Source of the DNA: a bacterium
Lineage (GTDB): Bacteria > Patescibacteriota > Dojkabacteria > SC72
Assembly: GCA_021108295.1 (NCBI GenBank)
Contig: JAIORF010000005.1
Span: 136,531-200,530 of the forward strand
Reading direction: 5' to 3'
Length of the DNA stretch: 64,000 nucleotides
The position numbers and the translations under genes are program-made. Below are positions 4,903 through 46,254 of this stretch, one piece after another (positions within the stretch are counted from its first letter, which is position 1; each line of letters begins with the position of its first letter). The notes beneath the pieces were generated by a model, which saw only the letters and a program-made list of their open reading frames with translations, made no database searches and was not told the origin of the DNA.

Positions 4903-7264
4903 CTACTCCTTGGGGAGTTATATGTTGTCTCCCTTGTTGTAAATCTCTACGACTTCTTACTACCTGACCTGGAAGGGTATTTTCTTCGAGAGTGGTAGTG
5001 AAAGATTTCTCATGAGCATACTTAGCAGGGTTTAATTCTCTCTCCTTCTCTTCTAGTTTTCTACGAACTTCTTCTTCGTAATCCTTCCGTTCTCCCTCGA
5101 TTTGTACTTTGTCATCCTTCCTTCTCTGAGCAGCTCTTGCAATCATAGATTTCTGCTTAGTAATACTGGTACCATCCCTCATTGGTTGTTGAGCAGATGG
5201 TGGAGCAAATACTTTTGCCAATTCTTCAATGGTTCGTGTATCCTTAATCCCTTGTGCTTCTTTCTTTGCCATTTCTTCTAAATCTCTAGGATCAGATGTA
5301 ATTAGCTCGTGTTCTGCTTGGCTTGAGAGTACCTGTATTCCTACATGATTTGAACCAGCAAAGAACAATCCCTGCCCTCTATCGCAATTTAGTAAGAAGT
5401 TTCTCTCACCATCAGAGAGATTAAATACAGCTTGCAGGGTTTCTACTGCAGAGGGACTTTGTTTCATTAGCATTTGTATAGAGGAGTTGGAGATGATGGC
5501 TTTACCCATGTCGTTTTTCATAAAGTCAGCTACATCTTGGGTGATAGTGGTTAGGCCTAGGTAGTATTTTCTTGCCCGTTTTGCCATGGAGTACATAAAT
5601 TTGGCGGAGTCTTCACTTTCCATCATGTACCAAGCTTCATCTACGATTAACAATCGTTGTTTTCTTACTTTTCTAATTCTAGTCCATATAAAGTCTAGCA
5701 TTAGATACATAGCCAATGGTTTTAATTCTTCTTGGAGATCCCTTACACTAAATACTGTGAATGGATTGTTGATTTCAAAGTTACTGGCTTCGTTAAATAT
5801 TCCAGCACCACTTCCTATGATATATTTCTCCATTCGTCTGGCTAAATTGTGAGCTTCATCTTCTGCCATACCTTTCAGTACCTTGTAAAGATCTTCGAGT
5901 AGAGGAGGGTCTTTCTTTTGAGTTCTTGCATCAAATGTAATACCTTTTTCTCTGTAGGTAAGTATGAGTGCCCTATCTAGTATGGAGGATTCGACATTGG
6001 ATAGTCCTTCGAACATGACTTTGAAAAATCCTAGTAGGGAGAGCATCTTCATTCGTAATTCATCGTCATCGTCATCTGCCATGCCTGAGAGTTCAAATGG
6101 ATTCATCTTATGTCCTTGATCCTGAGAGAAGGATATGTATGAGCCTTCTACAGCTTCGGAAAGATCTTCATACTCACGTTCTGGATCTATGATTATTATC
6201 TCTGTACCCATCATTAAGCTTCTTACAGCTTCTAATTTCACAAAGTAGCTTTTACCTGCTCCAGATTTAGCAAAGACTACGGTATTCGCGTTTTCTAATT
6301 CAAATCTATCAAATACGACCAAACTATTATTATGCAGATTAAGACCATACATGATACCGCGGTTCATGGTTAGTTCAGAGGAGACAAATGGGAAGGTAGT
6401 AGCTAAGGATGTAGTATCCATATTGCGTGTAATATGGATTTTGTCTAAGGCAAGTGGTTGTGTACTGATGAAGCCGGGTTCTTGAAGTAGAGTAGCTGAT
6501 TTAGCTGTCACATTCATTGCAGCGAGTGTAGAGGTGATATTTCTAGAGTACTTCTCCAAGAGCTTTTTGTCAGGAGCGTATATTGTTATATACATTGCAA
6601 AGTGGAAGAACTTTTCGCTTCCCTCAGCTATTGAGTCTTGGAGCTGTTGAGCGTCAGAGAGTTTTACTTTGAGAGATGCGTCAATTACTTTTCGGTCTTC
6701 CATTTGACTGTAGAGGGTGGCTTCCATTTCTCCAATTTTTTTCTTAAGCTTTTCCAGTATTATCCTTGAGTCTACAGGGTAGTAAAAGGTACTGATACGG
6801 AGTGAATGTTCGAAGTTAATGATAGGAGAAAGCCAATTTGGTCCTACAAACCTAGGGTAATCACTGATAAAGAAAGTTTTGAAGTAGTAGTCTCCCATTT
6901 GTAGATGGTTGAAATCTACTTCAAGGTCAATGGGTGCTACAATATCTGTTAGTGATAGTCCAGAGAAATCAGCAGTGGGTCTTCGTTGTGCTTCTACTGA
7001 TGGTTCTATTTCAACCTTTGGTTTTTTGGATGTAGGAACAATCTTGTCTAGCATTTTGAATAGGACATTCTTTTTCGTTTCTTTCTTTACTACAGTATCT
7101 TCAAACCTTTCCTTTTGGATGTTGTTAATTTTTGCTTCTTTTACAACATCAACCTCTTGTTGTACTTGGTTTGTGATATCTTGATATTTAGTTAGAGGGT
7201 CAGTATTCATTTGTTCTGTAACCTTAGAATTAATCTGTTTGTTTTTTAATGTTTTATCTTCCAC
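4868..7264 (-). CDS. virB4: VirB4/TraE/TrsE-family type IV secretion (conjugation) ATPase, main body. Starts at a GTG in the ORF track; an alternative ATG is at 7210.
   Basis: Walker A 'VFAKSGAGKSYFVK', 'IIIDPEREY', Walker B-like 'LLIVDEAWYMM', 'GLTTITQDVADF'. The N-proximal 'SLTDIVAPIDLEVDF..MGDYYFKTFFISDYP' continues the VirB4 N-domain. The first ~100 aa are a K/E/Q-rich low-complexity segment. Confidence 0.8.
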   Translation of the reverse strand: MEDKTLKNKQINSKVTEQMNTDPLTKYQDITNQVQQEVDVVKEAKINNIQKERFEDTVVKKETKKNVLFKMLDKIVPTSKKPKVEIEPSVEAQRRPTADFSGLSLTDIVAPIDLEVDFNHLQMGDYYFKTFFISDYPRFVGPNWLSPIINFEHSLRISTFYYPVDSRIILEKLKKKIGEMEATLYSQMEDRKVIDASLKVKLSDAQQLQDSIAEGSEKFFHFAMYITIYAPDKKLLEKYSRNITSTLAAMNVTAKSATLLQEPGFISTQPLALDKIHITRNMDTTSLATTFPFVSSELTMNRGIMYGLNLHNNSLVVFDRFELENANTVVFAKSGAGKSYFVKLEAVRSLMMGTEIIIIDPEREYEDLSEAVEGSYISFSQDQGHKMNPFELSGMADDDDDELRMKMLSLLGFFKVMFEGLSNVESSILDRALILTYREKGITFDARTQKKDPPLLEDLYKVLKGMAEDEAHNLARRMEKYIIGSGAGIFNEASNFEINNPFTVFSVRDLQEELKPLAMYLMLDFIWTRIRKVRKQRLLIVDEAWYMMESEDSAKFMYSMAKRARKYYLGLTTITQDVADFMKNDMGKAIISNSSIQMLMKQSPSAVETLQAVFNLSDGERNFLLNCDRGQGLFFAGSNHVGIQVLSSQAEHELITSDPRDLEEMAKKEAQGIKDTRTIEELAKVFAPPSAQQPMRDGTSITKQKSMIARAAQRRKDDKVQIEGERKDYEEEVRRKLEEKERELNPAKYAHEKSFTTTLEENTLPGQVVRSRRDLQQGRQHITPQGVVDYSNNNNNDG

Positions 7265-7904
7265 TTCTTCCCTCCTCGTCTGGATTATATGTTGTGTAGA
7301 ACTCTGTTATTAGTTCTTGATTGGTTAATTGGTGTCCCATTAGTCCCATTCTCCCTATTTGTTTAATAATGTGGTCTCGTTTAGGGTAGAGAAATATCTT
7401 TGCTTTTTCAAGTAGGTGTTCTTGCTTTACAGCTTTCTGTGCGGTTTGTTCTTCCTTTGTTTTCTTTGCACTAAAAATATTTGCATCTGGCATAATGGCG
7501 GCTGGGTTGTATGGTACGACGAGGTAGAAGTTTTTATCAAGGACATTGTTTTCTACAATTAAGTTTTGTACAAAGAGGGTGTATATATTAAGCATGTTCT
7601 TTAATCCCTCGGACATATTTGTTTGATCTTGATTTCTAAGATGGTCAATGTAGTTAGAAATATCTACTCTTTGTGTTCTGATGAGGATTTGGATATGGAA
7701 GTTAAGGGAGTTGAGTAATCCTGCAAAAGCATAAATCTTATTGTCTTGTTCATACTCTGCCAAAAGATCAAAGTTTATCGCATTGGTTTGTATGACTAGT
7801 GCTACACTACCACTTTTTGTAATGACCAAGTCATCCACAATGTCTCTTATCTCTAAGTGAGTTTGTGTAGATATGGTTGTTCTTGCTCTGTCTTTTGCCT
7901 TCAT
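7254..7904 (-). CDS. VirB4-family N-terminal domain encoded as a separate 216-aa ORF (a split or frameshifted VirB4)
   Basis: 'LEIRDIVDDLVITKSGSVALVIQTNAINFDLLAEYEQDNKIYAFAGLLNSLNFHIQILIRTQRVD' matches the conserved N-terminus of Gram-positive VirB4 proteins (Tn916 Orf16 / PrgJ type). It overlaps the next ORF by 11 nt in a different frame. Confidence 0.6.
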   Translation of the reverse strand: MKAKDRARTTISTQTHLEIRDIVDDLVITKSGSVALVIQTNAINFDLLAEYEQDNKIYAFAGLLNSLNFHIQILIRTQRVDISNYIDHLRNQDQTNMSEGLKNMLNIYTLFVQNLIVENNVLDKNFYLVVPYNPAAIMPDANIFSAKKTKEEQTAQKAVKQEHLLEKAKIFLYPKRDHIIKQIGRMGLMGHQLTNQELITEFYTTYNPDEEGRSGR

Positions 7905-8722
7905 GTAAGTTTCGCTGTTATTTTAATAGGGTTCTTACTTTGTGTATTTTCTAGTATCCATTGAATGTTTGGAATTATGTATGTATTCTGATCAAATTGT
8001 ATGTAGTAAATACCTTGTGGGAGAATGCGGTTGAGTATAAAGTATCCGTTTTGTCCTGTTCTATTTGCGAATATTACTTTCCCATTTTTATCCTTAAGGT
8101 AGACTGGGATATTTGCTAGACCTCGGTTGTTTGTATCGGTCAACCAGATATTTATATTTCCTGGTAATCGGTCTACACTCTTTATCCCAAATTGGTATTT
8201 AGAAATGTTTTGAGGTCCTATGACAACGGTTTGTTGTAGAGGTTTGGATTGTTGCATTGTTGGTTCTGGTTTGGTACTGATTTTTGGAGTTTGTACTTTG
8301 AGAATATCGTCACCAGGTTTTTCAATGAATATCTTTTTCCCTTTTGTTATTTTCCCTCCTACAATCTTTCCTTTGTTCCCGTCATCTGTTTTAACTATTG
8401 GTTTGACTCTTTGACTTTGCATTTGTTCATTTAACCATACTCTCTGTGTAGGTTTATTTATCGCAGTAAAGAAATTCTTTATAAATTCATCTGCTCCTTG
8501 GTCGTTGATTGGGACTAGTGCAAAGAATGCTCCTATGGATGAGAGGATAAGGAATGATGGCCATGCGAGGAGGGCAGGAAGACCTAATTGTTTGTTTAGG
8601 ACAAGGAAAAGTGAACCGCTTACAACACCTGCTGCAAGGTATGCGAATTCTTTGAGTGTAAACCTAGTAAAGAGTTTAAACTCAACATCTAGTACGTTTT
8701 GTGGTATTGGATGTTGTTTCAT
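7901..8722 (-). CDS. PrgI/VirB3-like two-TM membrane protein fused to a C-terminal carboxypeptidase-regulatory-like beta-sandwich domain
   Basis: 'VEFKLFTRFTLKEFAYLAAGVVSGSLFLVL...LLAWPSFLILSSIGAFFALVPINDQGADEFIKNFF' matches the PrgI-family signature that precedes VirB4 in Gram-positive T4SS. The C-terminus 'IWLTDTNNRGLANIPVYLKDKNGKVIFANRTGQNGYFIL' is CarbopepD_reg-like. Confidence 0.55.
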   Translation of the reverse strand: MKQHPIPQNVLDVEFKLFTRFTLKEFAYLAAGVVSGSLFLVLNKQLGLPALLAWPSFLILSSIGAFFALVPINDQGADEFIKNFFTAINKPTQRVWLNEQMQSQRVKPIVKTDDGNKGKIVGGKITKGKKIFIEKPGDDILKVQTPKISTKPEPTMQQSKPLQQTVVIGPQNISKYQFGIKSVDRLPGNINIWLTDTNNRGLANIPVYLKDKNGKVIFANRTGQNGYFILNRILPQGIYYIQFDQNTYIIPNIQWILENTQSKNPIKITAKLT

Positions 8723-13618: not shown

Positions 13619-13915
13619 CTAAGAGCCTTTTTTAGCAGATTTGACATTATCTTGGGCAAGATTGTTAAGTTTAGCTGCAAGTCTTGATTTATTTCTACTT
13701 GCGTTGCCTTTCTTAATGATATGTTTCTTGGCTGCTTTGTCAAGTACTTTATTTACTTGAGGGAGTGCTTTTGTTGCTTCGTCTAGCTTTTTCTCTTCTA
13801 TTAAAGCATTAAATCTCTTAGTAGCTTTTTTAACACGATTTCTAAGTCTATCGTTAAAAACGGTCCTTTTTTTAGTTTGTCTTAAATCTTTGATTGATGT
13901 TCTTAAATTTGGCAT
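13619..13915 (-). CDS. rpsT: 30S ribosomal protein S20
   Basis: 'MPNLRTSIKDLRQTKKRTVFNDRLRNRVKKATKRF...KALPQVNKVLDKAAKKHIIKKGNASRNKSRLAAKLNNLA' fits the S20 family pattern. Confidence 0.8.
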   Translation of the reverse strand: MPNLRTSIKDLRQTKKRTVFNDRLRNRVKKATKRFNALIEEKKLDEATKALPQVNKVLDKAAKKHIIKKGNASRNKSRLAAKLNNLAQDNVKSAKKGS

Positions 13916-34227: not shown

Positions 34228-34236
34228 AGTCTCTCT

Positions 34237-36381: not shown

Positions 36382-36503
36382 ACATGGATTATATCATTTT
36401 TGTTGGTATATTAACTATTTATTGTATATAACTCATACACAATGTGGTAATAACTAGGGATATCTGATATCCTAAAGTATAGATTAATTAAGATACTAAA
36501 CAC

Positions 36504-36818
36504 ATGTTTGAAACAATACCATCAATATATTGGATGATCCTTATAGGAGTACCTGCAGGATTCTTTACATTCATACTCTACCAATTAGGTATGGTTACTA
36601 AGGATATGAGAGGGGTAGTACAAAATAGTACTAAGATATTGGAAGAATCAAACAAGACATTGATTAAAACAAATGTAATATTAGATGATGTCCAAGCAAT
36701 TGTAAGTACTACTAAAGGGACTGTAGAAGAAGTAAATCAGGCAGTTATAGTACCTGTTAGACAAATATCAGGACTATTATCCAAACTCACGGCATTTCTC
36801 TCTGGAATAAAGAAATAA
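36504..36818 (+). CDS. Small membrane protein (104 aa; N-terminal TM pair, coiled-coil C-terminus, DUF948-like)
   Basis: 'IYWMILIGVPAGFFTFILYQLGMV'. First gene of a seven-gene same-strand cluster. Confidence 0.4.
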   Translation: MFETIPSIYWMILIGVPAGFFTFILYQLGMVTKDMRGVVQNSTKILEESNKTLIKTNVILDDVQAIVSTTKGTVEEVNQAVIVPVRQISGLLSKLTAFLSGIKK

Positions 36819-36907
36819 TAGTTGTTTTTTATGAACATAAAGAGGAACAGATGTATCTAAGGAGTTTTCCCATTGTCTAATAGAAATAATAAATGTAATA
36901 TAGAGTC

Positions 36908-38524
36908 ATGTATATAACTCCATACCAAAAGAAACAGCTAACTACAATCTTCATACTAGTACTAGGAATACCACTAACCCTCTTCGCCATATACACTGGA
37001 GCACAATGGTTTACAAGTGCAGGAGCGAACACCCAACCCAAAGATGTGATACTAGCTAATTTGACAACTAACTCTGTTGTAGTAACTTGGACTACAAGCG
37101 ATGAAGTAATAGGATCAGTAATCCCTGTACTAAATGGTACAGAGGGCAGCCCAGTAATAGACAAGAGAGGAAGTGGGAAAAGAAATACCCACTACGTTGA
37201 GATTAAAAGTTTGGAACCAGGTACAGAATATGATTTTAAGATAATATCAGGAGAAGATACCTATGTAGATGTGGGTGGTACAGAGTTCGAATTTTCTACA
37301 GCCAACATTAGTGCAGATATTCCAACCCCTACCCCTGTACACGGAATACTCGCAGATATTAGTGATGACGATGCATTGATATATATTCTCCCTAAAGACA
37401 AAACAACATACCCTGCAGCAACAGTACCATCAAGTAATGGGAACTGGTTGGTAGATCTCTCATCATTAAGAAGAATTGAAGATAAAAGTATGTATACAGT
37501 ATTAGAATCAACGGATTTAGTGGTAATAGGAGTCTCAAGTATTGGGAATGCAGGTGTTGTAGAAGGACAGTATGGAATAATATTTGATTCTAGTAAAAAA
37601 TTAACAGAAACGCTTGTTTCTTCAGGGACACAATATGACATATATATATCTGAAGATACAAAGCTAGTAGCTACGGAAGACAAAGAAGAGGAACCTACTG
37701 TAGTAGTGGATAAAGAGAATGAAACACCATATGTACCACCTGTTGTTGTAGAACAAGAGGTTGAAGAAACTTTTGATAAAGAGTATGAACTTAAAAACGA
37801 TCTAATTTGGACTAATTTAGTGTCCAGTGAAGGTGTAGTGCCTACGCAACCAGACGAATATGGAACAGATAGTGTAATGGTAACAAATCTTACCGATGTT
37901 GGCTGTTCTATCATATGGTTCTCCCAAGAATCTCAACAAGGTCATGTGATGTCCGGGACTTCTATATCAGAGCTATCGGACAAAGGGAGAGATGAAAGAG
38001 ATGGCATAGCGTCACAGGGAGAATATTTCTTACACAGTATTGAAATTACACAACTACAACCAGAAACAACATACTACTTTGAAATATACTCAGGAGAAGA
38101 AACATATGAGTATGAAGGGGAAATAACTACCTTTGCTACACAGTCTAGTCCTCCACAATTCGAAACTATTGTAGGAACTCTAGAAGTAGACGATTACAAA
38201 AATGCCCTTGTTGTTGCAACCTTCGTAGATAATGATGGTATTGGATCTAAAGGTACAAGCCACCCAATCTCTACTCTGGTAGATAGTGAGGGCTCTTGGA
38301 TTTTGACAATTGGTGGAGCAAGGGACAGTGAAGGTGAGTATTTTGACAAGAGTAATGATGACAAAGTTAACCTAAGTTCTAAGTATTTTACAAATTCTTC
38401 AGCTACTGAGATGACCATTGGAGAAGCCACTTCTGAAGAAATAGGGATTTCAACTTCTAGCTCAAGTGATTTGGCGTTTAGTATAATCCCATCACTTTCT
38501 GACTACGGTGTTCTTGTAGATTAA
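36908..38524 (+). CDS. Surface protein with an N-terminal signal anchor and two FN3-like (PAP-N-type) domains
   Basis: TM 'LTTIFILVLGIPLTLFAIY'. 'VVVTWTTSDEVIGSV....HYVEIKSLEPGTEYDFKI' and a second 'VTNLTDVGCSIIWFS.....HSIEITQLQPETTYYFEIYSG'. Confidence 0.5.
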   Translation: MYITPYQKKQLTTIFILVLGIPLTLFAIYTGAQWFTSAGANTQPKDVILANLTTNSVVVTWTTSDEVIGSVIPVLNGTEGSPVIDKRGSGKRNTHYVEIKSLEPGTEYDFKIISGEDTYVDVGGTEFEFSTANISADIPTPTPVHGILADISDDDALIYILPKDKTTYPAATVPSSNGNWLVDLSSLRRIEDKSMYTVLESTDLVVIGVSSIGNAGVVEGQYGIIFDSSKKLTETLVSSGTQYDIYISEDTKLVATEDKEEEPTVVVDKENETPYVPPVVVEQEVEETFDKEYELKNDLIWTNLVSSEGVVPTQPDEYGTDSVMVTNLTDVGCSIIWFSQESQQGHVMSGTSISELSDKGRDERDGIASQGEYFLHSIEITQLQPETTYYFEIYSGEETYEYEGEITTFATQSSPPQFETIVGTLEVDDYKNALVVATFVDNDGIGSKGTSHPISTLVDSEGSWILTIGGARDSEGEYFDKSNDDKVNLSSKYFTNSSATEMTIGEATSEEIGISTSSSSDLAFSIIPSLSDYGVLVD

Positions 38525-38562
38525 CCCATTGAATACATCTTTCTTTCAATGTATATTGTACT

Positions 38563-39915
38563 ATGTCGAAGAAATTGTATAGAAGAAAACCCATACTCTT
38601 TTTAGTAGCTCTAATTCTGTTTGGGATTTTTGTTGTAAATATAACTCAAGATATTACTAATATCCAAGCTGACACACAGGAATTTGTACTAAGTGAGAAG
38701 GTAGAAGCCAACGAAGGAGATTGTAACTTAGAACAAGATATATTCTTTGAGATAGACGAAAACTTTAAACCGATTAGAGAAGTTCAACCTGGAATGGTCT
38801 TGTATGAACAAGATGTGTTGGGAACAGAGTGTGTAACTCCACGTTACAGCTACTCTTCCGAGAAAATATGTTCTAGGACTACATCCTTTGATACGAATAT
38901 GGGTAAGAAAGAAGGTTTGCTTACAGTCGATACAATGATTGAGAGAGATTCATCTATTTCTCTTACGAGTATTCAAGTACCACCATTGTTAAATGGTTCA
39001 CCTACTATGGATAGCTCTGTTAGACAGATATTTACTGAAAAAGAGGGTGCTGAACATTGGACACTAAAACCTGCAGGAGAGATGGTTAATAAAGAGGTGG
39101 TTGCTGGGAATGCATATCCAGGAGATACTCAGACACAAGAGAGGATAGAGGATGCTGAGGAATCTAAAACCAAGTCTTTTGGTATCACTTACTCTGTCGA
39201 AGGGGGCTCCAATGCAGAAGGATCAGGTAAAAATGAATTCTCTATTTCAACCTACCAAACTAATGACTGTGGAGCAGAGTGTAGAAACTACTCTAATCCT
39301 ACTCCAGAGAAGTATCTTTCTAGTGCACAGATATTAGGACAGTCTCAAAACTATCCCGGTTACTACGACAATGTTCCAGAACAGCAGGATGAGAGTATTA
39401 ATAATTGTGATACGAATACTACATTTCTTAAAATGGATTTAGATACAGAGATGAAGGGCTGTACTCCAAGTCTTAAGCAAGTTGTAATGTCGTTTTTTAA
39501 GAGGATTACAAGTCTTTTTGAAGCAGACAAATGTTCTAATCAAGGAGAATCAAGTGAGGCTTGTATAAGTACTGCGAGTATTGTTATCATTATGGAATCT
39601 CCTTGGGGTAGTAAGGAGGATTGTGCTGATGGAGCGTGTGTTACAGAGTTTAATGAGCTTAGAAATGGAGGATTTTCAATTCCAAGTAGTGATGCTTCAA
39701 GCAGGATTTATGTTTTGACAGATTGCTATGCAAATATTGAAGGACAGAGTAATGTTCTTCTTTCATGTGCTTGGGATATGGACTATATTACTCAAGAATT
39801 AGAATTTCAGTCACATGACAATATACCTCAGGAGGTATTTCCTGATAGAATGGATTATATTAATTTTCATGTGTGGGAGAGTGAGCGTAGAACAGATGGT
39901 GTGTATGAGATGTAA
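38563..39915 (+). CDS. Secreted Cys-rich hypothetical protein (450 aa)
   Basis: N-terminal TM/signal 'ILFLVALILFGIFVV'. Many paired Cys. No homology recognised. Confidence 0.45.
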   Translation: MSKKLYRRKPILFLVALILFGIFVVNITQDITNIQADTQEFVLSEKVEANEGDCNLEQDIFFEIDENFKPIREVQPGMVLYEQDVLGTECVTPRYSYSSEKICSRTTSFDTNMGKKEGLLTVDTMIERDSSISLTSIQVPPLLNGSPTMDSSVRQIFTEKEGAEHWTLKPAGEMVNKEVVAGNAYPGDTQTQERIEDAEESKTKSFGITYSVEGGSNAEGSGKNEFSISTYQTNDCGAECRNYSNPTPEKYLSSAQILGQSQNYPGYYDNVPEQQDESINNCDTNTTFLKMDLDTEMKGCTPSLKQVVMSFFKRITSLFEADKCSNQGESSEACISTASIVIIMESPWGSKEDCADGACVTEFNELRNGGFSIPSSDASSRIYVLTDCYANIEGQSNVLLSCAWDMDYITQELEFQSHDNIPQEVFPDRMDYINFHVWESERRTDGVYEM

Positions 39916-39939
39916 TATTTAATATTTTTAACTACATAA

Positions 39940-41346
39940 ATGAAGAGATTTAATAAAGACTTATTTTGGTCTGTATTGGTAATTGTTATGTTTTTTCTTT
40001 CGACCAACATATATGCTCAGGAAGGAATAGACTTGGGAGCATCTTACGAAGCTACTGTAGAGGCGGTGAATGCAGGACAAGGCGCAGAGAAGGATGAGTA
40101 CAATTCTGCAAGATCACAGGCTGTAAGTGCTAATACGGCAGTTGTAAATGCGATCATTTACTTAGCACCTGAAGTCTCTTCAACATATCAAACAATGTTG
40201 GATTCAGAGACACTTCCACAAGATATGAAACGAGGTATCTATGGTATGACTGCTGATGGTGTATATACCATGTATGAGTCACAACCTCTTGTGAATGTTT
40301 ATGCACATCTGGCAGAGGAATGGGTGCCTGGTTATCAATCAACTACTTCGGTATATGCGGATTTCTCAACAGGTCCATATGATTCAGGATATGATGAGCT
40401 AGTGAATTCCGGTATTAGTGGTTTGTGGTCACAGGTCAGAAATATTACTTATGTAATCTTTATCCTAATCATGATAGTTGTTGGTTTTATGATTATGTTT
40501 AGGAGTAAATTAGATGGTCAGACATTAGTCTCTCTTGGAAATACATTACCAAATATTATTCTTGCTTTAATAGGGGTCACCTTTAGTTTTGCGATAGCGG
40601 GGTTGATAATAGATATTGGAGGAGTATTAATGGTAGTTCTAATTAATATATTTGATGTAAGTAGTGGCTATGATCAATTCATAACTCTCGAAAGTATTGG
40701 TGCATTATTTGGGGCTGTTGTCCCTCAAGGGATGGTTCAAGATGCCTCATCCTTTATTGCTGAACGAGGCATTGTAGGCAGAGGTCTCTTGGCAGTTGTT
40801 GGAGCAACCCTTGCCCCAGCTGCTGGTCTTGTAGCTTTATTACCAACATTAGTGATTTTAGGTGTTATGACTGTAGGGGTAATTAAAGTCTTCATAACTT
40901 TAATTAAGGCATATGTAGGTATTATAATAAATGTTATTACAGGGCCGTTCCAAATTGCAATGTCAGCGATTCCGGGTCAAAATGCAAGCTTCATCAATTG
41001 GGTGAAAAGTGTTATGAGAAATGTATTGGTATATCCAATTGTGTTTGCGATTTTAAACCTTCCTGGGATTATATATTCTTTGGCTGGAGAGGGAGGAATA
41101 TCTCTTCCTGGTCCGGATAAACTTACTCTGACTCAAAGTCCTGGTCAATTGAACCAAGAAATTGGTTTTGTATCGGGAGCATTAGTCTTCATATTGCAAA
41201 TCTTTGTACTTTTCGCAGCTTCCAAAGCAGATGCGTACGCTAATGCGATATTACCTCCAACATCATCAAAGGCTAGTGGAGATGCAGCTCTAGCTGCAAA
41301 GCAAGCTTTATCTGGAATACCTCTAATTGGGAAATTAATAAAGTAA
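39940..41346 (+). CDS. Polytopic membrane protein (signal peptide, ~150-aa ectodomain, 6-8 TM); VirB6/TrbL-like in architecture
   Basis: Signal 'VLVIVMFFLSTNIYAQEG'. The C-terminal half has successive hydrophobic helices with Gly/Ala/Pro-rich loops. Assigned by architecture, not by motifs. Confidence 0.4.
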   Translation: MKRFNKDLFWSVLVIVMFFLSTNIYAQEGIDLGASYEATVEAVNAGQGAEKDEYNSARSQAVSANTAVVNAIIYLAPEVSSTYQTMLDSETLPQDMKRGIYGMTADGVYTMYESQPLVNVYAHLAEEWVPGYQSTTSVYADFSTGPYDSGYDELVNSGISGLWSQVRNITYVIFILIMIVVGFMIMFRSKLDGQTLVSLGNTLPNIILALIGVTFSFAIAGLIIDIGGVLMVVLINIFDVSSGYDQFITLESIGALFGAVVPQGMVQDASSFIAERGIVGRGLLAVVGATLAPAAGLVALLPTLVILGVMTVGVIKVFITLIKAYVGIIINVITGPFQIAMSAIPGQNASFINWVKSVMRNVLVYPIVFAILNLPGIIYSLAGEGGISLPGPDKLTLTQSPGQLNQEIGFVSGALVFILQIFVLFAASKADAYANAILPPTSSKASGDAALAAKQALSGIPLIGKLIK

Positions 41347-41356
41347 TTAGAAATAT

Positions 41357-44134
41357 ATGGCTGGATATAAAGGCAAGAGTGAAACAATATCATCTGTATC
41401 AGATATTCTAGGTTTTATCCTAGAACAGTCTGAACTACCACCAGAGAAAAGAAGACCAGTAAGACCACCACAGACTGCAGATAGTCAAGCAAGTTCTGAA
41501 TATGCACAGACATTAGTGGATGCACTTGCTATGCCAGGAACGTTTGTAGGAGAAAAGTATCTCGAGACTGTTGAAGGGCTTGTAAGTCCAACTATTGCAA
41601 TAGGGACACAGACTGGTCGTATACCTAATGTCAAGATAACGGCTAGTGCATTACCAGAGTTTTTTGAAAATCCTGATGAGTTTGTAGATAAATTGTTCCA
41701 GAAGAACAAAGACATATCTAAGATGCAGAAAATTAGATGGGCAGGTGAACAGATGAGGGTATTGGCAGGTAGTACATATGCTAAGAAAATGGGTTTATTC
41801 GATGACTATGGAGATCTTAAATCTACTCTTGAAAGAGGTCTAGGACAGGTTGCAATGGACTCTGGGAATGAAAGAGATAAGCAGTGGATTACAAAAGCAT
41901 CAATAGATATCAAGGAGCATGGGATGGTAAATAGTGTTAGTGTTAAAGATTTGGAAAGGAGGAAGAAAGTAGCGCATAGTATAAAGGGGAAAGAGCGTAT
42001 TCAAGGACAAATTGAAGCGTTGTCATTTAAGCACGGCAGTGAGGAAGAAGCGAAGAAGGATCAGGACATTGGAACATTTAGGTCTCTCTTGGGTTTAGAG
42101 TTTGATGAGCGAAGAATTAAGATTCTCGATGGAAGGGATCTTAAAGATCTCGATTCTAAAGAACTAGATTCTTTTAAGAAGGTCCAAAGTGCTTCAAACA
42201 CACTGTCTTTATGGTCTGGATATGAAAAATTAGACCATAGAGGTATGAAGGATAAGTGGTCTAATATTAGAGAGCAGAGAAAAGAGATTTCCGATATAAA
42301 GCAAGGGTTTGGTGATCGATTGAAGGCAATCAAGAATGGGACAACAATCACTCTTGACGACGGCAATACGATTGATTATGGAAAGTTGTCATCCTCAGAT
42401 AGGCAGAAAGAAAAAGCATATATTAGCAAGAATCTCAAACAATTAAGTACAACAGAAAGATCTCTAACTAGTGTATATCTTTGGAGTAAAATAGGCCAGG
42501 CTGAGGGGGTATATCATGGTCTCAAGCAGACTTTTGGTCCTGGAGGTGTTGAAGCTTTCTTGAATGGAGATTTCTTTGATCCAAATAAGGGTTTCTTTGG
42601 ATGTCCTTCTGCAAAAGGGAAGTTTAGAGGAGTAGAGTTTGTTACGTCTAAAAGTACAAAATATAAGAAAGAGAAAGGTGGGAAATATAAAGCGACCCTT
42701 ACGGACACATACAATGATACCATGGTGCGGCTATACTACCTCAATCCAACAACCTGGATGAAAACTGCTTTTAACGGTTCAGGCTTTGCCTGGATAGCAG
42801 AAAACCGTGAGGTGTCTTTAGCCAAGATGTGGGGTGTTAAAGAAAGTAGAATTTTTAAAGACTTACAGAAGCCTGAATTTTGGGCATTCTATAAGAGATA
42901 TAAGGATCTTGATCCTACAAAACAAACCTTAATGCTTGATAGAGATCCTAAATATAAAGCCCTACTAGGATATATTAGCAAAGGATTAGGAGAAAAGGCA
43001 TTTGCCAAGAAATTTAAACAAGCAGAGAAAATATTCAAGAGCTTAGAAAGGTTTTCAGGATTGTCAAGATTCTTTAGTACTCCAACAAGAATACGTGATT
43101 ATATTGTGGAGGGAACTATTGGGAAAGTACAAAAAGGTTTTAGGAATAATGCGTATAGGGTTTTGTCTAAAATGAAAATCTTTACAAATTCTGAAGCTGC
43201 CAAATCTCTGTTGAGAACTTGGAAGGCAACAGGAGGATCCTCTCTTTCAGCAGCAATTGCTCAAGGTATTTTGACTGCTCTAGGTGCAGCAAGTAGTGTA
43301 GTTGCAGGACCTTTAGGTGTAGCTTTAACATTGGCAGTATCGGTTATTCTAGAAAAAGTTGCCAAAGTATCAATCAAAGTATTTATTTATGCTTTTATAG
43401 GAATCTTTGGTGCAATAATATTACTAGGAGCTTCAATAGAGTTTGGTAGCAGAGCACAAGTAGACTCATACTCTAGAGAAATCCCAGGTACGATATATGA
43501 GAATCCAAACTTTGGTGGATATGGAGGTTTTTACTCTGGATGGTTTAGTGGTGGTGGAGGGAATTTTGTTCCTCCTCCTATAAATATCCCTGCACCAACA
43601 AACTCTTCCTGTCCACTCGGGGATGTTAAATATCGTTGCTCTCAAGGATTTACTCGTACAGTATGTTCGCACAAGAATATTACACATAAATACCCAGTAG
43701 ACCTGACAGGCTTCTCGTTCTTCTATGCCCCACAATACTGTGACACATCCACTTGTACTGCAAGTCTGTCAAGCATGGCCGCATGGCGATGTAGTGACGG
43801 TAGTTTTACTGGACGAAACATAGAGTTTAGTGATGGACAAGGAAATGTTTTCAATCTAATGCATACAAAACTAATATCACCAGGTAATGGACGCAACTAC
43901 AAAGCAGGTGAGCCAGTCGCATATATCTACCAATATGCAGCCGAAATGGTTGCTGATGATCCACTAGGGATTACTAAGCCTAATAAGAATGGAGTCTTCT
44001 ACTGTTGGACAGGAGCCCATATACACCTTACAATTACACATAATGGTCAGTACATTGACCCTATTGCATTCTTAGTTGAAATGGGATGTACAAATGGAGC
44101 CCAATCAGAGTCTGAATGTCCTCCATGTAAGTAA
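41357..44134 (+). CDS. 925-aa membrane-spanning protein: ~630-aa cytoplasmic N-domain, TM hairpin, Gly-rich linker, extracellular Cys-rich M23 (LytM)-like metallopeptidase domain
   Basis: TMs 'VVAGPLGVALTLAVSVIL' and 'VFIYAFIGIFGAIILLGASI'. Linker 'GGYGGFYSGWFSGGGGNFVPPP'. C-terminus 'HKYPVDLTG...' and 'YCWTGAHIHLTITHNGQYIDPIAFL' (M23 HxH). Confidence 0.5.
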   Translation: MAGYKGKSETISSVSDILGFILEQSELPPEKRRPVRPPQTADSQASSEYAQTLVDALAMPGTFVGEKYLETVEGLVSPTIAIGTQTGRIPNVKITASALPEFFENPDEFVDKLFQKNKDISKMQKIRWAGEQMRVLAGSTYAKKMGLFDDYGDLKSTLERGLGQVAMDSGNERDKQWITKASIDIKEHGMVNSVSVKDLERRKKVAHSIKGKERIQGQIEALSFKHGSEEEAKKDQDIGTFRSLLGLEFDERRIKILDGRDLKDLDSKELDSFKKVQSASNTLSLWSGYEKLDHRGMKDKWSNIREQRKEISDIKQGFGDRLKAIKNGTTITLDDGNTIDYGKLSSSDRQKEKAYISKNLKQLSTTERSLTSVYLWSKIGQAEGVYHGLKQTFGPGGVEAFLNGDFFDPNKGFFGCPSAKGKFRGVEFVTSKSTKYKKEKGGKYKATLTDTYNDTMVRLYYLNPTTWMKTAFNGSGFAWIAENREVSLAKMWGVKESRIFKDLQKPEFWAFYKRYKDLDPTKQTLMLDRDPKYKALLGYISKGLGEKAFAKKFKQAEKIFKSLERFSGLSRFFSTPTRIRDYIVEGTIGKVQKGFRNNAYRVLSKMKIFTNSEAAKSLLRTWKATGGSSLSAAIAQGILTALGAASSVVAGPLGVALTLAVSVILEKVAKVSIKVFIYAFIGIFGAIILLGASIEFGSRAQVDSYSREIPGTIYENPNFGGYGGFYSGWFSGGGGNFVPPPINIPAPTNSSCPLGDVKYRCSQGFTRTVCSHKNITHKYPVDLTGFSFFYAPQYCDTSTCTASLSSMAAWRCSDGSFTGRNIEFSDGQGNVFNLMHTKLISPGNGRNYKAGEPVAYIYQYAAEMVADDPLGITKPNKNGVFYCWTGAHIHLTITHNGQYIDPIAFLVEMGCTNGAQSESECPPCK

Positions 44135-44142
44135 TACAAATT

Positions 44143-45084
44143 ATGAACAAAAAAACACTTAAAATTTTAATAATAGTAACTGTAGGAATGATACTCCTTA
44201 TAGGAGCATTCCTCATATACTCCTTACTCCAGCCAAAAGCATTAGAAGGTGAATTGATAGATACGAATCCATACCTCAATGACAATACCGAATACAATTT
44301 GAGTATAGAAGCAACAATTGAAACGAAAGACTCTCCTCTCTATATATGCAAATCCAATACAATACCAGAATATTTAGATTCTTTCGCGTCGAAAATTGAT
44401 AATGGCTTGCAAAAAACATCTGATATGAATTTTGTAACATGGGGGAAAGACGGAGAGGTAATAGTGAGATATGATATAGATACAACAGTACTCATGATTA
44501 ATTTATCCCAGTACCCAGAAGCGATGAGATTTAACTCAATAGAAGACTTTATAATTACCTACCTAGATCCTACAATTAAATATGTAGACCCAATTATAGA
44601 CGAAGGAGAAGGGTTTAAAATGTATAGAGTAAATAGAATTATAGACGAGCAAGAAATAAAGACGGGCTCAGGTAGTTCGGACTATTTCTATACCGAAAAA
44701 GGATACCTTAAGACTGCAAGAGTACTACTAGCGCAAATAGAGAAATCTGAATTTATAGCCCCTATGATAGAGGACATAGCTCTTTTAGAGCGATATCTCT
44801 CTTCTCCACAATATCCTAAAATGATAACAATAGATACAACTGGAGTGATAACTTCTGATGAATTCACCTACGAAACCATGGATGTTGAGATAGAATATGA
44901 GAAATGTTCTATCAATAAAATTGAGCCAGTTCTTTACTTTGTCAATTGCAATCAGAACTTCCTGTACTACTCCTACGAAATCTCAGGAGTATGTGATGTT
45001 GAATATGAAAAAGGACTCTTTAGTGTACCTTTTGTAGGATTCATGAACGCAATAGACCCTGAATATGTCAAAAGTGGAGAATAG
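44143..45084 (+). CDS. Membrane-anchored hypothetical protein (313 aa, N-terminal TM)
   Basis: 'ILIIVTVGMILLIGAFLIYSLL', then a soluble domain. Gram-positive VirB8-like proteins have a comparable layout, but no motif supports that. Confidence 0.35.
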   Translation: MNKKTLKILIIVTVGMILLIGAFLIYSLLQPKALEGELIDTNPYLNDNTEYNLSIEATIETKDSPLYICKSNTIPEYLDSFASKIDNGLQKTSDMNFVTWGKDGEVIVRYDIDTTVLMINLSQYPEAMRFNSIEDFIITYLDPTIKYVDPIIDEGEGFKMYRVNRIIDEQEIKTGSGSSDYFYTEKGYLKTARVLLAQIEKSEFIAPMIEDIALLERYLSSPQYPKMITIDTTGVITSDEFTYETMDVEIEYEKCSINKIEPVLYFVNCNQNFLYYSYEISGVCDVEYEKGLFSVPFVGFMNAIDPEYVKSGE

Positions 45085-46254
45085 TTGGTACAATGTAGTA
45101 TGAAAATAAAAAATCTTTTACTAACAATCTTCTTTTTAACAATATTCATCACCCCAATACTAGGATATACCGACTCACACACAGATTTTGATACCTCGCT
45201 AGTGGCTGGTATACAGTATCAATATAGCCAACCAACTAAAATTCTCTTTACCCAAATAGAAGGTAGCTATGAATCTCTAAATCTAAGTACACAAGACTAC
45301 CTCGATGTAATATATTACTACTCAATTACAAAACTTAAACTAGGAAATATCCCATTCCACTATGCAATTGATGAAAACGGAGATGTTTTCAGTACACAGA
45401 ATGTAGATGCTCTTAAGCTTACGGATGAACAATATATTGTAATTGCCTACCTTTCGAATAATCCTCAAGTAAGTAATAAGGCAAGAAATTCCATTCTAGA
45501 AGTTGCAAATGACCTCTCCTACAAATATGGGATTACCCAATATGACACTTACTCTTACAATATTGTAGAAACTGAAGACATACTCTCAAAACTTGAACTA
45601 GTAGATCCTAATAATCTCTTTTTTACATCAATTGACGACAGTTTGGAAGAATGGGAAATAAGTGAAAGAGAGCATCTAGATTACGAAGCTGAGATTGAGA
45701 ATATAGAGTATGAAGAAAGTGTAGAGATAGGGAATACACTACAAGTTAAAGTAACAGTTAAGAATGGAAATGACTTTGTATGGCTTTCTGACAAATACCC
45801 AATATATATATCAGTAAAAGATTCTCGGGAAAGTATATACGCACTAAATGGAGAATGGGATAGTTTTAGCAAACCTGTACACATATCCTCTGATAGATAT
45901 GTACTACCAGGAGAGAGTATAGAGATGACATTTAAACTAGATCCTAAAGTATTACCAGGGAAAAATGCAGAAGCATTTGAGATTCATAAGTTTGCAAAAG
46001 AAGTGTTTTTAGAATCTGAATTTGTAGTGGAATTTACTGTAGTAAAGGGAGACAACACATTGGTGAAAATGGTGTCTCCAGAATTCGGATTTGTAAATAT
46101 AAGGGAATGTAGATGGTATAGCTGTGAGAAAATTGAAGTAGCAAATGATGGAGAAGTTTACATTGTAGTAAAAGAAGAAGAAGGATGGTATCAAATTCTC
46201 TTTGGACAGGACAAAGAAGGGTGGGTATACGGTAAGTATGCCAAAGAAATTTAG
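45085..46254 (+). CDS. Secreted hypothetical protein with a C-terminal SH3b-like domain
   Basis: Signal 'LLLTIFFLTIFITPILGYT'. C-terminus 'GEVYIVVKEEEGWYQILFGQDKEGWVYGKYAKEI'. Confidence 0.4.
   Translation: MVQCSMKIKNLLLTIFFLTIFITPILGYTDSHTDFDTSLVAGIQYQYSQPTKILFTQIEGSYESLNLSTQDYLDVIYYYSITKLKLGNIPFHYAIDENGDVFSTQNVDALKLTDEQYIVIAYLSNNPQVSNKARNSILEVANDLSYKYGITQYDTYSYNIVETEDILSKLELVDPNNLFFTSIDDSLEEWEISEREHLDYEAEIENIEYEESVEIGNTLQVKVTVKNGNDFVWLSDKYPIYISVKDSRESIYALNGEWDSFSKPVHISSDRYVLPGESIEMTFKLDPKVLPGKNAEAFEIHKFAKEVFLESEFVVEFTVVKGDNTLVKMVSPEFGFVNIRECRWYSCEKIEVANDGEVYIVVKEEEGWYQILFGQDKEGWVYGKYAKEI

What the first reader, a model, noticed from the sequence alone, without database searches (positions are those of the whole stretch)
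36504..46254. Seven-gene co-directional operon of exclusively secreted or membrane proteins, including a VirB6-like polytopic protein and a membrane-spanning M23-peptidase protein: candidate envelope-spanning or host-contact apparatus
Seen: seven + strand ORFs (36504-36818, 36908-38524, 38563-39915, 39940-41346, 41357-44134, 44143-45084, 45085-46254) separated by only 9-90 nt, and every one begins with a signal peptide or TM anchor.

None matches a housekeeping family. The set combines a DUF948-like small TM protein, a double-FN3 adhesin-like protein, a Cys-rich secreted protein, a 6-8-TM protein built like VirB6/TrbL, a 925-aa protein with cytoplasmic, transmembrane and extracellular PG-hydrolase parts, a bitopic protein, and an SH3b cell-wall-binding protein.

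Inference: Gram-positive-type T4SS contain exactly this mix (VirB6-like channel, VirB8-like bitopic protein, cell-wall hydrolase, surface adhesin). The same window has a VirB4/PrgI module 30 kb away that lacks any of these envelope parts. This operon may therefore be the missing envelope portion of a T4SS-like system, or a distinct cell-cell attachment machine of an episymbiotic CPR cell. None of the proteins can be placed in a named family by eye, so the system may be undescribed.
Basis: partly seen in the sequence, partly recalled or inferred. Interest (0 to 1): 0.78.

Follow-up and report, generated by a model that had tools for sequence, protein, structure and literature searches.

The report
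Detached envelope half of CPR T4SS
This seven-gene operon of a Dojkabacteria (CPR) cell most likely encodes the membrane and cell-wall parts of the type IV secretion machine these tiny host-dependent bacteria carry, placed 30 kb from its ATPase genes and built around a VirB6-like channel protein that standard profiles do not detect.

Summary
The seven + strand ORFs are real and lie where stated. They form a chromosomal core operon of Candidatus Dojkabacteria, kept in the order RsmB-RsmE-[g0]-g1..g7-UvrD in about 80 species-level genomes.

The T4SS reading is supported on three lines.
- The g4 family is large (3,992 clusters at 50% identity). In other CPR lineages its gene sits co-directionally between VirB2-like pilin arrays and PrgI-TrsD-VirB4.
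- g5 (M23 endopeptidase behind 2-3 TM helices and a roughly 630-aa cytoplasmic domain) and g6 (bitopic) have counterparts in those clusters. hhalign gives 92-93% probability, for g5 over the M23 domain only.

- g5 has no N-terminal signal peptide or anchor.
- g6 folds like YycH/YycI (PepSY-type), not like VirB8.
- g7 is a PGRP/amidase-like domain, an Ig-like domain and SH3b.
- No pilin genes were found in the window or within 10 kb of the operon.

The Patescibacteria T4SS is already published (2023, 2025). This is therefore a new variant: a split locus with an unrecognised VirB6-like family and a new bitopic subunit.

The parts
36504..36818 (+). g1: 104-aa protein with one N-terminal TM helix and a probable coiled-coil tail; role unknown
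   Evidence: ORF. Hydrophobic segment at residues 7-29. Weak DUF948 hit, 23 bits, below the cut-off. A positional orthologue was found in 66 of 84 loci.
36908..38524 (+). g2: 538-aa secreted or anchored protein with two FN3-type domains (residues 43-113 and 327-402); candidate surface adhesin
   Evidence: Pfam fn3 E 1.7e-7 and Pur_ac_phosph_N E 6e-14. N-terminal hydrophobic segment. Found in 71 of 84 loci.
38563..39915 (+). g3: 450-aa secreted Cys-rich protein (13 Cys, at least 8 invariant across orthologues); no known family
   Evidence: No PDB sequence match to the family profile. Found in 56 of 84 loci by tblastn; where tblastn fails, the slot is still filled by a gene of similar size.
39940..41346 (+). 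g4: 468-aa polytopic membrane protein (signal-like N-terminus, helical ectodomain, about 6-7 TM helices); divergent VirB6/DotA-like T4SS subunit
   Evidence: Topology.
No Pfam family for 53 family members scanned via alignments A1 and A4; the 10 distant members scanned are largely the same proteins as A4.
AF2 model pLDDT 69.
Foldseek: the top 4 hits are TrwI chains, probability 0.90-1.00.
Family size: 3,992 representative clusters.
Distant homologues sit between pilin arrays and PrgI-TrsD-VirB4.
41357..44134 (+). g5: 925-aa protein with a roughly 630-aa cytoplasmic N-domain of unknown fold, 2-3 TM helices (about 632-694) and an extracellular C-terminal M23 (LytM-type) endopeptidase domain; positional equivalent of the PrgK/VirB1-class wall hydrolase
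   Evidence: Topology.
M23 evidence: Pfam hit in 18 of 36 orthologues; family profile against ShyA E 3e-4, with the LHv and HlHle motifs aligned; hhalign against M23 proteins of other CPR T4SS clusters gives probability 91.7%, M23 domain only.
The same architecture recurs beside PrgI or VirB4 in other CPR loci.
44143..45084 (+). g6: 313-aa bitopic protein with an N-terminal TM helix and two extracellular alpha+beta modules of YycI/YycH (PepSY-type) fold; conserved partner of g5
   Evidence: AF2 model pLDDT 77.5.
hhalign against the bitopic proteins encoded just upstream of PrgI in other CPR loci: probability 92.8%, E 3.9e-7 over 223 columns.
45085..46254 (+). g7: 389-aa secreted wall-binding protein with an N-terminal PGRP/Amidase_2-like domain, a middle Ig-like domain and a C-terminal SH3b domain; the true start is probably the ATG at 45100
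   Evidence: SH3_3 hit in 36 of 37 orthologues, Amidase_2 in 3 and an Ig-like domain in 6.
Family profile against PGRP-SD E 1.9e-4 and against an autolysin SH3b E 2.7e-6.
M6 is nearly invariant.
7901..8722 (-). PrgI/VirB3-like protein with a C-terminal beta-sandwich domain; cytoplasmic-membrane partner of VirB4 (outside the finding, same system)
   Evidence: Pfam PrgI E 1e-5. Homologous to the L085 PrgI protein, E 1.5e-12.
7254..7904 (-). TrsD-like protein (VirB4 N-terminal-like, 216 aa), encoded between prgI and virB4
   Evidence: 47.5% identity, E 1e-29, to the start of the TraC-like ORF that follows PrgI in L085. TrsD is described as the commonest VirB4 companion in Patescibacteria (PMC12102498).
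4868..7264 (-). VirB4 ATPase (798 aa)
   Evidence: Pfam P-loop_TraG E 2.9e-27, AAA_10 and CagE_TrbE_VirB.

Best explanation
The operon encodes the membrane- and wall-spanning half of the Patescibacteria-type (monoderm, MPF_FATA-derived) type IV secretion system of a Dojkabacteria cell. The energising half, PrgI/VirB3 - TrsD - VirB4, lies at 4868-8722 on the other strand.

Proposed working (inferred unless marked shown):
- VirB4, with TrsD and PrgI, sits at the cytoplasmic face of the membrane.
- g4 is a VirB6/DotA-like subunit (fold and gene context shown). It would form the central stalk or protochannel on the outer face of the membrane.
- g5 is held in the membrane by 2-3 helices. It presents an M23 endopeptidase outside (domain shown; activity inferred from retained motifs), which would cut peptide cross-links in peptidoglycan so the apparatus can cross the symbiont's own wall or the host's. 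Its large cytoplasmic domain could dock to the ATPase module.
- g6 is a YycI/PepSY-like bitopic protein always encoded next to g5-type genes (shown). It would scaffold or restrain the hydrolase, as YpeB does for SleB.
- g7 binds peptidoglycan through its PGRP-like and SH3b domains.
- g2, g3 and, in relatives, g0 are secreted FN3 or Cys-rich surface proteins. They occupy the place that pilin arrays and a large secreted protein hold in other CPR clusters, and they probably make host contact.

By analogy with Southlakia, where T4SS genes are essential for epibiotic growth and no relaxase or coupling protein was recognised, the machine probably serves host interaction rather than conjugation.

For: 2. 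Gene context of homologues. The g4 profile finds 3,992 representative clusters. In 80 metagenome loci of a distant clade, VirB2-like pilin genes lie upstream in 37 of 40 loci that have at least 4 kb upstream. PrgI lies co-directionally downstream in 16 of 25 loci that have at least 9.5 kb downstream, followed by TrsD and VirB4 (first seen in L085).

3. g5/g6 counterparts. In those clusters, 12 of 13 long proteins with mid-chain TM helices, some carrying M23, are followed directly by a bitopic gene. The pair lies either just before PrgI or just after VirB4. g6 matches those bitopic proteins by hhalign at 92.8% probability, E 3.9e-7. The g5 M23 domain matches theirs at 91.7% probability. There are also weak collinear HMM hits in the N-terminal and TM regions.

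4. The order VirB4 - large hydrolase - bitopic protein matches PrgJ-PrgK-PrgL of pCF10.

5. The window holds VirB4, TrsD-like and PrgI genes but no polytopic VirB6 candidate beside them.

6. Literature. VirB4 occurs in 2,417 of 3,035 Patescibacteria assemblies and in 18 of the 20 classes in that dataset, and the two Dojkabacteria assemblies visible in its supplementary table are marked VirB4-positive. Only 480 VirB6 homologues were detected, which the authors attribute to extreme divergence (PMC12102498). T4SS genes are essential in Southlakia (PMC10633639).
Against: - No sequence-level link to named T4SS families. None of 53 g4-family members hits TrbL/VirB6 in Pfam even at E up to 1. hhalign of the g4, g5 and g6 profiles against PrgH, PrgK and PrgL gives no match.
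- The Foldseek E-values (0.046-0.065) are not significant on their own, and the g4 model has only moderate confidence.
- Outside the M23 domain, g5 homology to the other CPR proteins is weak.
- g6 does not have the VirB8 fold.
- In all 84 Dojkabacteria loci the operon lies more than 10 kb from any VirB4, PrgI or TrsD gene. Functional coupling in this lineage is therefore inferred, not shown.
- Genome-wide co-occurrence could not be computed.
- No VirB2-like pilin gene was found in the window or near the operon.
- No coupling protein or relaxase turned up among the larger window ORFs that were scanned; not every ORF was scanned.
Confidence: 0.75

Rival explanations
1. The operon is an autonomous host-contact or attachment apparatus. 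It would reuse a VirB6-like membrane protein and wall hydrolases, but in Dojkabacteria it would work without the VirB4 module, for example as a passive pore or adhesion plaque at the symbiont-host interface.
For: The operon is physically separated from virB4 in every Dojkabacteria locus sampled. It has its own set of secreted FN3, Cys-rich and SH3b proteins and no pilins. L086 shows tandem g4 paralogues with no VirB4 within 10 kb.
Against: In other CPR lineages the g4-, g5- and g6-type genes are embedded in VirB4 clusters. The window genome retains an intact VirB4-TrsD-PrgI module that has no VirB6 partner of its own. Dispersed T4SS islands are known, for example in Rickettsia (cited in PMC12102498).
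Confidence: 0.15
2. The operon is an ordinary cell-wall turnover or cell-division operon: an M23 endopeptidase, a regulator, a PG-binding protein and membrane partners. It would have no role in secretion.
For: It is a fixed chromosomal core locus flanked by housekeeping genes (rsmB, rsmE, uvrD) in all relatives. It contains M23, PGRP-like and SH3b domains. g6 resembles YycH/YycI, which regulate the wall-homeostasis kinase WalK in Firmicutes.
Against: g4 has a VirB6/DotA-like fold, and its family is consistently linked to pilin, PrgI and VirB4 genes. No histidine kinase, FtsEX or division gene is adjacent. T4SS loci of Patescibacteria are themselves chromosomal and near housekeeping genes (PMC12102498).
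Confidence: 0.07
3. The operon is a domesticated phage-tail remnant. g5 would be a tape-measure-like protein: long and helical, with hydrophobic segments and a C-terminal M23 domain, as in phage T5 pb2.
For: The length, the central hydrophobic block and the C-terminal M23 domain of g5 resemble some tape-measure proteins. This comparison rests on my own knowledge and was not tested beyond architecture.
Against: No phage structural genes are nearby. Six of the seven products carry export signals. The locus is at the same chromosomal site in about 80 species. The g4 fold and the gene context point to a T4SS.
Confidence: 0.02

Closest known systems
Patescibacteria (CPR) type IV secretion system, as described in Southlakia epibionticum (Wang et al. 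2023, PMC10633639) and surveyed by Quinonero-Coronel et al. 2025 (PMC12102498)
   Same: VirB4, TrsD and PrgI/VirB3 are present in the window. The location is chromosomal, not on a mobile element. No relaxase or coupling protein was seen. A peptidase-type wall hydrolase is associated. g4-type genes occupy the VirB6 slot upstream of VirB3-TrsD-VirB4 in other CPR clusters.
   Different: In Dojkabacteria the locus is split, with the envelope genes about 30 kb from virB4, outside the +-20 CDS window used in the survey. The VirB6-like protein is not detected by Pfam. No VirB2-like pilin array was found; FN3 and Cys-rich secreted proteins sit in that place. There is a YycI-like bitopic subunit and a PGRP/SH3b protein.
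pCF10 Prg/Pcf conjugation system of Enterococcus faecalis (MPF_FATA prototype): PrgH (VirB6), PrgI (VirB3), PrgJ (VirB4), PrgK (LytM+SLT+CHAP hydrolase), PrgL (VirB8-like)
   Same: The component logic is the same, and in CPR relatives so is the gene order VirB6 - VirB3 - VirB4 - large wall hydrolase - bitopic protein. PrgK also carries a LytM/M23-type domain (PMC12857230).
   Different: There is no detectable sequence similarity. g5 has a roughly 630-aa cytoplasmic N-domain and no SLT or CHAP domain was detected. g6 is not NTF2/VirB8-like. g4 is about 200 aa longer than PrgH, with a signal peptide and an ectodomain. No conjugation genes (relaxase, T4CP) were seen.
VirB6 family: TrwI of R388 and DotA of the Legionella Dot/Icm system
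   Same: These are the best structural matches to the g4 model in two independent searches. All are polytopic helical membrane proteins.
   Different: Sequence identity is 5-14%. There is no Pfam TrbL/VirB6 match. The host is a monoderm with no outer-membrane complex, and no VirB5 or IcmX partner was identified.
YycH/YycI (WalK regulators) and the YpeB-SleB pair of Bacillus (PepSY-type bitopic proteins)
   Different: No WalK-type kinase is nearby. There is no sequence similarity. The T4SS context is new for this fold.

Membership tests
VirB6/TrbL (T4SS polytopic subunit) | Polytopic membrane protein with 5 or more hydrophobic helices | tested here: met
   About 6-7 hydrophobic segments between residues 169 and 426, plus a signal-like N-terminus. 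The AF2 model shows a helical bundle.
VirB6/TrbL (T4SS polytopic subunit) | Sequence match to VirB6-type profiles or sequences (Pfam TrbL/VirB6; PrgH) | tested here: not met
   None of 53 family members hits any VirB6-type Pfam family at E up to 1. hhalign of A1 against PrgH gives probability 0.1%. The family profile against PDB sequences gives no hit at E up to 10.
VirB6/TrbL (T4SS polytopic subunit) | VirB6-like three-dimensional fold | tested here: met
VirB6/TrbL (T4SS polytopic subunit) | Encoded in a T4SS cluster next to VirB3/VirB4 | tested here: inconclusive
   Met for distant homologues: PrgI lies downstream in 16 of 25 loci with enough sequence, and pilins lie upstream in 37 of 40. 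Not met in the window or in the 84 Dojkabacteria loci, where virB4 is more than 10 kb away and about 30 kb away in the window.
VirB6/TrbL (T4SS polytopic subunit) | Pentameric stalk assembling with VirB5, pilin or VirB4 | not testable with these tools
   Requires multimer modelling or cryo-EM.
Peptidase M23 (LytM-type endopeptidase) | Profile match and the H..D, H and HxH zinc and catalytic motifs | tested here: met
   PF01551 hits 18 of 36 orthologues, best E 2e-9. The family profile matches ShyA at E 3e-4 with the llHv and HlHle motifs aligned. The window copy reads ...THKYPVDL......LMHTK... and ...GAHIHLT.... The window copy alone is below Pfam detection.
VirB1/PrgK-class T4SS wall hydrolase | Peptidoglycan hydrolase encoded within the T4SS cluster, membrane anchored | tested here: inconclusive
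   M23 proteins of the same architecture lie just before PrgI or just after VirB4 in other CPR loci. Homology outside the M23 domain is weak. No match to PrgK. No SLT or CHAP domain was detected.
VirB8/PrgL/TcpC (bitopic NTF2-like subunit) | Bitopic topology with extracellular NTF2-like domain(s) | tested here: not met
Patescibacteria MPF_FATA-type T4SS (system level) | VirB4 plus VirB3/PrgI plus TrsD present in the genome | tested here: met
   Window 4868-8722 on the minus strand.
Patescibacteria MPF_FATA-type T4SS (system level) | VirB2-like pilin array (PF18895) | tested here: not met
   A CPR pilin HMM built from 185 sequences finds nothing in the 64-kb window. In the 84 Dojkabacteria loci its only hits are three weak ones to g4 itself. 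The rest of the genome could not be searched.
Patescibacteria MPF_FATA-type T4SS (system level) | Genome-wide co-occurrence of the operon with virB4 across Dojkabacteria | not testable with these tools
   Only 10-kb flanks can be fetched. The literature reports VirB4 in 18 of 20 classes, and the two Dojkabacteria assemblies visible in the stored supplementary table are marked VirB4-positive (PMC12102498).
YycH/YycI family | Fold, and partnership with the WalK histidine kinase | tested here: inconclusive
PGRP / Amidase_2 (g7 N-domain) | Profile match and the zinc ligands needed for amidase activity | tested here: inconclusive
   The family profile matches PGRP-SD at E 1.9e-4 and PGRP-I-beta at E 3.3e-4. 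Amidase_2 hits 3 of 37 orthologues. No invariant His is present in the N-domain, so it probably binds rather than cuts.
DUF948 (g1) | Score above Pfam's gathering threshold | tested here: not met
   23.1 bits against a 37.2-bit cut-off.

The most novel reading that the evidence does not exclude
The g4 family (about 4,000 clusters at 50% identity, with no Pfam match) is the 'missing' VirB6 of most Patescibacteria T4SSs. Together with the g5-type hydrolase (large cytoplasmic domain, mid-chain TM helices) and the g6-type YycI-like bitopic protein, it would define a conserved CPR-specific envelope core that replaces VirB8. On this reading Dojkabacteria carry a pilus-less, split-locus version in which FN3 and Cys-rich secreted proteins take over host contact.
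Probability: 0.4. Interest if true: 0.65.

Novelty: new variant of a known kind. Interest (0 to 1): 0.52.

Why it matters
CPR bacteria make up a large share of bacterial diversity. In the one genetically tractable member, the T4SS is essential for growth on the host, yet its envelope components are poorly defined. The published survey found VirB6 for only about a fifth of VirB4 genes and almost no VirB8.

This locus provides three things:
- a large VirB6-like family that current profiles do not detect;
- a conserved pair, a hydrolase and a YycI-like bitopic protein, that travels with VirB4 in other lineages;
- an example of a T4SS split into two chromosomal islands, which neighbourhood-limited searches will miss.

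It supplies concrete candidates for structural and genetic work on how these symbionts breach two cell walls.

Tried and rejected
- Pfam and NCBIfam scans of the seven proteins gave only fn3/Pur_ac_phosph_N, SH3_3 and a sub-threshold DUF948 hit.
- The g4, g6 and g3 profiles found nothing useful in PDB sequences.
- The Dojkabacteria g5 HMM against other CPR mid-TM proteins gave only weak collinear hits. hhalign of A2 against a poorly alignable set (A5) gave 24% probability. I therefore do not claim full-length homology for g5.
- hhalign of the g4, g5 and g6 profiles against single pCF10 sequences (PrgH, PrgK, PrgL) found no match.
- R388 could not be fetched from the plasmid collection, and afdb50 was unavailable.
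- The promoter and terminator scan was uninformative: fewer promoter-like sites than in shuffles, and terminator-like sites at chance level.
- No VirB2-like pilin was found in the window or in the Dojkabacteria loci.
- g0 is a large FN3 protein present in most relatives. tblastn against the window found only FN3-level similarity to g2, so g0 is absent from this window.
- The phage-tail and housekeeping wall-turnover readings were considered and set aside because of the g4 fold and the gene context.

Full report
**Observation**

I call them g1 to g7:

| Gene | Coordinates |
|---|---|
| g1 | 36504-36818 |
| g2 | 36908-38524 |
| g3 | 38563-39915 |
| g4 | 39940-41346 |
| g5 | 41357-44134 |
| g6 | 44143-45084 |
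| g7 | 45085-46254 |

The gaps between them are 89, 38, 24, 10, 8 and 0 nt. g7 more probably starts at the ATG at 45100, because the Met at residue 6 is nearly invariant among orthologues.

Six of the products have an N-terminal hydrophobic segment. g5 has none; its only hydrophobic block is at residues ~632-694.

Pfam gives the following:
- g2: fn3 and Pur_ac_phosph_N.
- g7: SH3_3.
- g1: a sub-threshold DUF948 hit.
- g3, g4, g5 and g6 in the window copies: nothing.

The consensus promoter and terminator scan is uninformative, and uvrD follows g7 after 27 nt. A single transcript is therefore plausible but untested.

**Organism and conservation**

The g5 and g6 products are identical to proteins of an NCBI metagenome-assembled genome (locus tags K8R14_00810 and K8R14_00815, 208-kb contig). 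Homologues of g4 carry Candidatus Dojkabacteria (WS6) labels.

A scan of one genome per species found 475 stretches that encode g4 relatives. In the 80 best loci plus 4 others, the order is RsmB(-) RsmE(-) [g0] g1 g2 g3 g4 g5 g6 g7 UvrD(+) G5-domain(-) TPR(+) wherever the contig is long enough.

Identity to the window proteins falls to the following levels with the order unchanged:

| Gene | Lowest identity |
|---|---|
| g4 | about 36% |
| g5 | about 18-26% |
| g6 | about 19-23% |
| g7 | about 31-43% |
| g3 | about 18-28% |

These are therefore real genes in a fixed chromosomal core operon, not a mobile element.

Most relatives carry an extra upstream gene, g0, which encodes a secreted FN3-type protein of about 900-1400 aa. 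It is absent here and in a few other lineages.

**What g4 is**

None of 53 family members (alignments A1 and A4) matches TrbL/VirB6 or any other Pfam family at E up to 1, and the family profile finds nothing among PDB sequences.

An exhaustive profile search nevertheless shows a large family: 3,992 representative clusters at E up to 1e-3, and 1,622 at E up to 1e-30.

The AlphaFold model (pLDDT 69, pTM 0.59) gave these fold matches:
- Foldseek, run independently: four TrwI chains are ranked first, with probability 0.90-1.00, although E is only about 0.05. DotA is at rank 8.

Two methods converging on the few VirB6-type chains in the PDB is unlikely to be chance.

**Gene context of distant g4 homologues**

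The first distant member examined, P0258 in locus L085, sits in this cluster:
- several PF18895 T4SS_pilin genes;
- a 1450-aa secreted protein;
- the g4-like gene;
- a 984-aa M23 protein;
- a 334-aa bitopic protein;
- a PrgI protein with a CarboxypepD_reg-like domain;
- a TraC-like/VirB4 gene.

The window's own PrgI-like protein, and the 216-aa ORF between it and VirB4, are homologous to the L085 PrgI and to the start of the L085 TraC-like ORF (E 1.5e-12, and 47.5% identity at E 1e-29). The 216-aa ORF is therefore the TrsD-type companion of VirB4 described for Patescibacteria (PMC12102498).

In 80 further metagenome loci of this clade:
- VirB2-like pilin genes lie upstream of the g4-like gene in 37 of 40 loci with at least 4 kb upstream.
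- PrgI lies co-directionally downstream in 16 of 25 loci with at least 9.5 kb downstream, followed by TrsD and VirB4.
- Two of the nine loci without PrgI end in an M23 gene at the contig edge.

The g4 family thus occupies the VirB6 slot of the CPR T4SS cluster.

**g5 and g6**

The family profile of g5 matches M23 endopeptidases (ShyA, E 3e-4), with the catalytic His and the HxH motif aligned. PF01551 hits 18 of 36 orthologues. The window copy retains the motif residues as read directly from the sequence.

In the other CPR clusters, long proteins with no N-terminal signal and 1-3 mid-chain TM helices lie either just before PrgI or just after VirB4. Some of these have a C-terminal M23 domain. 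12 of 13 are followed at once by a gene for a protein with a single N-terminal TM helix.

Profile-profile results:
- g6 against those bitopic proteins: probability 92.8%, E 3.9e-7 over 223 columns.
- g5 against those M23 proteins: probability 91.7%, E 7.8e-7, restricted to the M23 domain.
- Outside the M23 domain there are only weak collinear HMM hits and a 24% hhalign match. Full-length homology of g5 is therefore likely but not shown.

The order VirB4 - large hydrolase - bitopic protein is that of PrgJ-PrgK-PrgL in pCF10, the prototype of the monoderm class to which CPR VirB4 proteins are related (PMC12102498). PrgK also contains a LytM-type domain (PMC12857230).

**The other products**

- g7 combines a PGRP/Amidase_2-like N-domain (profile against PGRP-SD E 1.9e-4; no invariant His, so it probably binds rather than hydrolyses), an Ig-like middle domain and an SH3b domain.
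- g2 has two FN3-type domains.
- g3 is a secreted protein with conserved cysteines and no detectable relatives of known structure.
- g1 is a small single-pass protein of unknown role.
- No VirB2-like pilin gene is present in the 64-kb window or within 10 kb of the operon in 84 Dojkabacteria loci.
- No coupling protein or relaxase was seen among the larger window ORFs scanned.

**Interpretation**

The best explanation is that this operon encodes the envelope half of the Dojkabacteria T4SS, detached by about 30 kb from its PrgI-TrsD-VirB4 half.

Shown:
- the VirB6/DotA-like predicted fold of g4;
- the systematic linkage of g4-type genes to T4SS genes in other CPR lineages, where g5-type/g6-type gene pairs also sit beside PrgI or VirB4;
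- the M23 domain of g5;
- homology of g6 to the bitopic proteins of those T4SS clusters;
- presence of the ATPase module in the same genome with no VirB6 candidate beside it.

Inferred:
- that the two islands work together in Dojkabacteria;
- that g4 forms the stalk or channel;
- that g5 opens peptidoglycan and that its cytoplasmic domain contacts the ATPase;
- that g6 scaffolds or restrains g5;
- that g2, g3 and g0 mediate host contact in place of pilins;
- that the machine serves host interaction rather than conjugation. This last point is by analogy with Southlakia, where T4SS genes are essential and no relaxase or coupling protein was recognised (PMC10633639).

Rival readings:
- An autonomous attachment device (confidence about 0.15). 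It is disfavoured by the gene context in relatives.
- A housekeeping wall-turnover operon (about 0.07). It is disfavoured by the fold of g4.
- A phage-tail remnant (about 0.02). It is disfavoured by the lack of any phage structural genes nearby.

**Novelty**

A Patescibacteria T4SS is already described (PMC10633639, PMC12102498, PMC12857230), so the kind of system is known. What appears new is the following:
- The split arrangement in Dojkabacteria. It would escape the +-20 CDS neighbourhood analysis used in the survey.
- A large VirB6-like family that Pfam does not detect. This plausibly accounts for the scarcity of VirB6 reported in the survey: 480 VirB6 homologues against 2,474 VirB4 homologues, 'suggesting extreme sequence divergence'.
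- A conserved YycI-like bitopic subunit in the place where VirB8 is expected.
- The apparent absence of pilin genes near the operon or elsewhere in this window.

I rate it a new variant of a known kind, of moderate interest.

Noticed in passing
window 14007-14796 (+): Two small adjacent ORFs. The first is 133 aa with a TM segment. The second is a 131-aa secreted protein consisting of a single FN3/Pur_ac_phosph_N-type domain; it matches the second FN3 region of the g2 family HMM at E 6e-13.
   Followed up: partly
window 12524-13743 (-): A 216-aa protein with four hydrophobic helices and a 188-aa protein lie upstream of lepA, about 4 kb from prgI. Neither has a Pfam family, and neither is hit by the g4 or CPR pilin HMMs.
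   Followed up: partly
window 48295-49218 (-): A secreted G5-domain protein with a Cys- and Trp-rich C-terminal region, possibly another wall-active domain. It is conserved right after uvrD in nearly all Dojkabacteria loci.
   Followed up: no
window 36382-36503; L001 3195-6236; L003 1830-4700; L005 2547-5885: Most relatives, including the closest one, have an extra first gene, g0, between rsmE and g1. It encodes a secreted protein of about 900-1400 aa with a Pur_ac_phosph_N/FN3 domain. It is missing in this window and in L011, L039 and L049.
   Followed up: partly
L001 913-3130: In one relative, PIN and AbiEii-type toxin-antitoxin genes are inserted between rsmE and g0. In the window, a DUF4365 gene and a 119-aa ORF (33772-34596) lie just beyond rsmB, between pnp and rsmB. 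This flank may be a small insertion hot spot.
   Followed up: no
L085 12073-15315 (-) and equivalents in L089, L118, L128, L133, L146, L152, L158, L159, L162: In non-Dojkabacteria CPR T4SS clusters, a large soluble protein (about 570-1320 aa, no TM segment) is almost always encoded on the opposite strand directly after the g4-like gene. Its function is unknown and the Dojkabacteria operon has no counterpart.
   Followed up: no
L086 8198-14501: Two tandem g4 paralogues (593 and 848 aa) are followed by a 660-aa protein whose N-terminus matches the conserved N-terminal motif of g5 (domain E 2.9e-5). The locus is near dnaA/yidC and has no VirB4 within 10 kb.
   Followed up: partly
P0256 residues 172-219; two members of A4: The first TM helices of some distant g4-like proteins give weak hits to the VirB2 pilin families TrbC (E 0.05) and T4SS_pilin (E 0.008). 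The CPR pilin HMM also weakly hits three Dojkabacteria g4 proteins. This may be hydrophobic bias or a real pilin-like segment.
   Followed up: no
L009 and L032 (MAG WOFB23): One metagenome-assembled genome carries two different copies of the g4-g5 region on separate contigs (54% and 39% identity to the window g4). This is either a true duplication or a mixed bin.
   Followed up: no
window 14770-16491 (-), 22157-24019 (-), 25385-26179 (-): Other surface machinery in the window: a DUF11-repeat protein, a Big_7 Ig-domain protein and a sortase.
   Followed up: no
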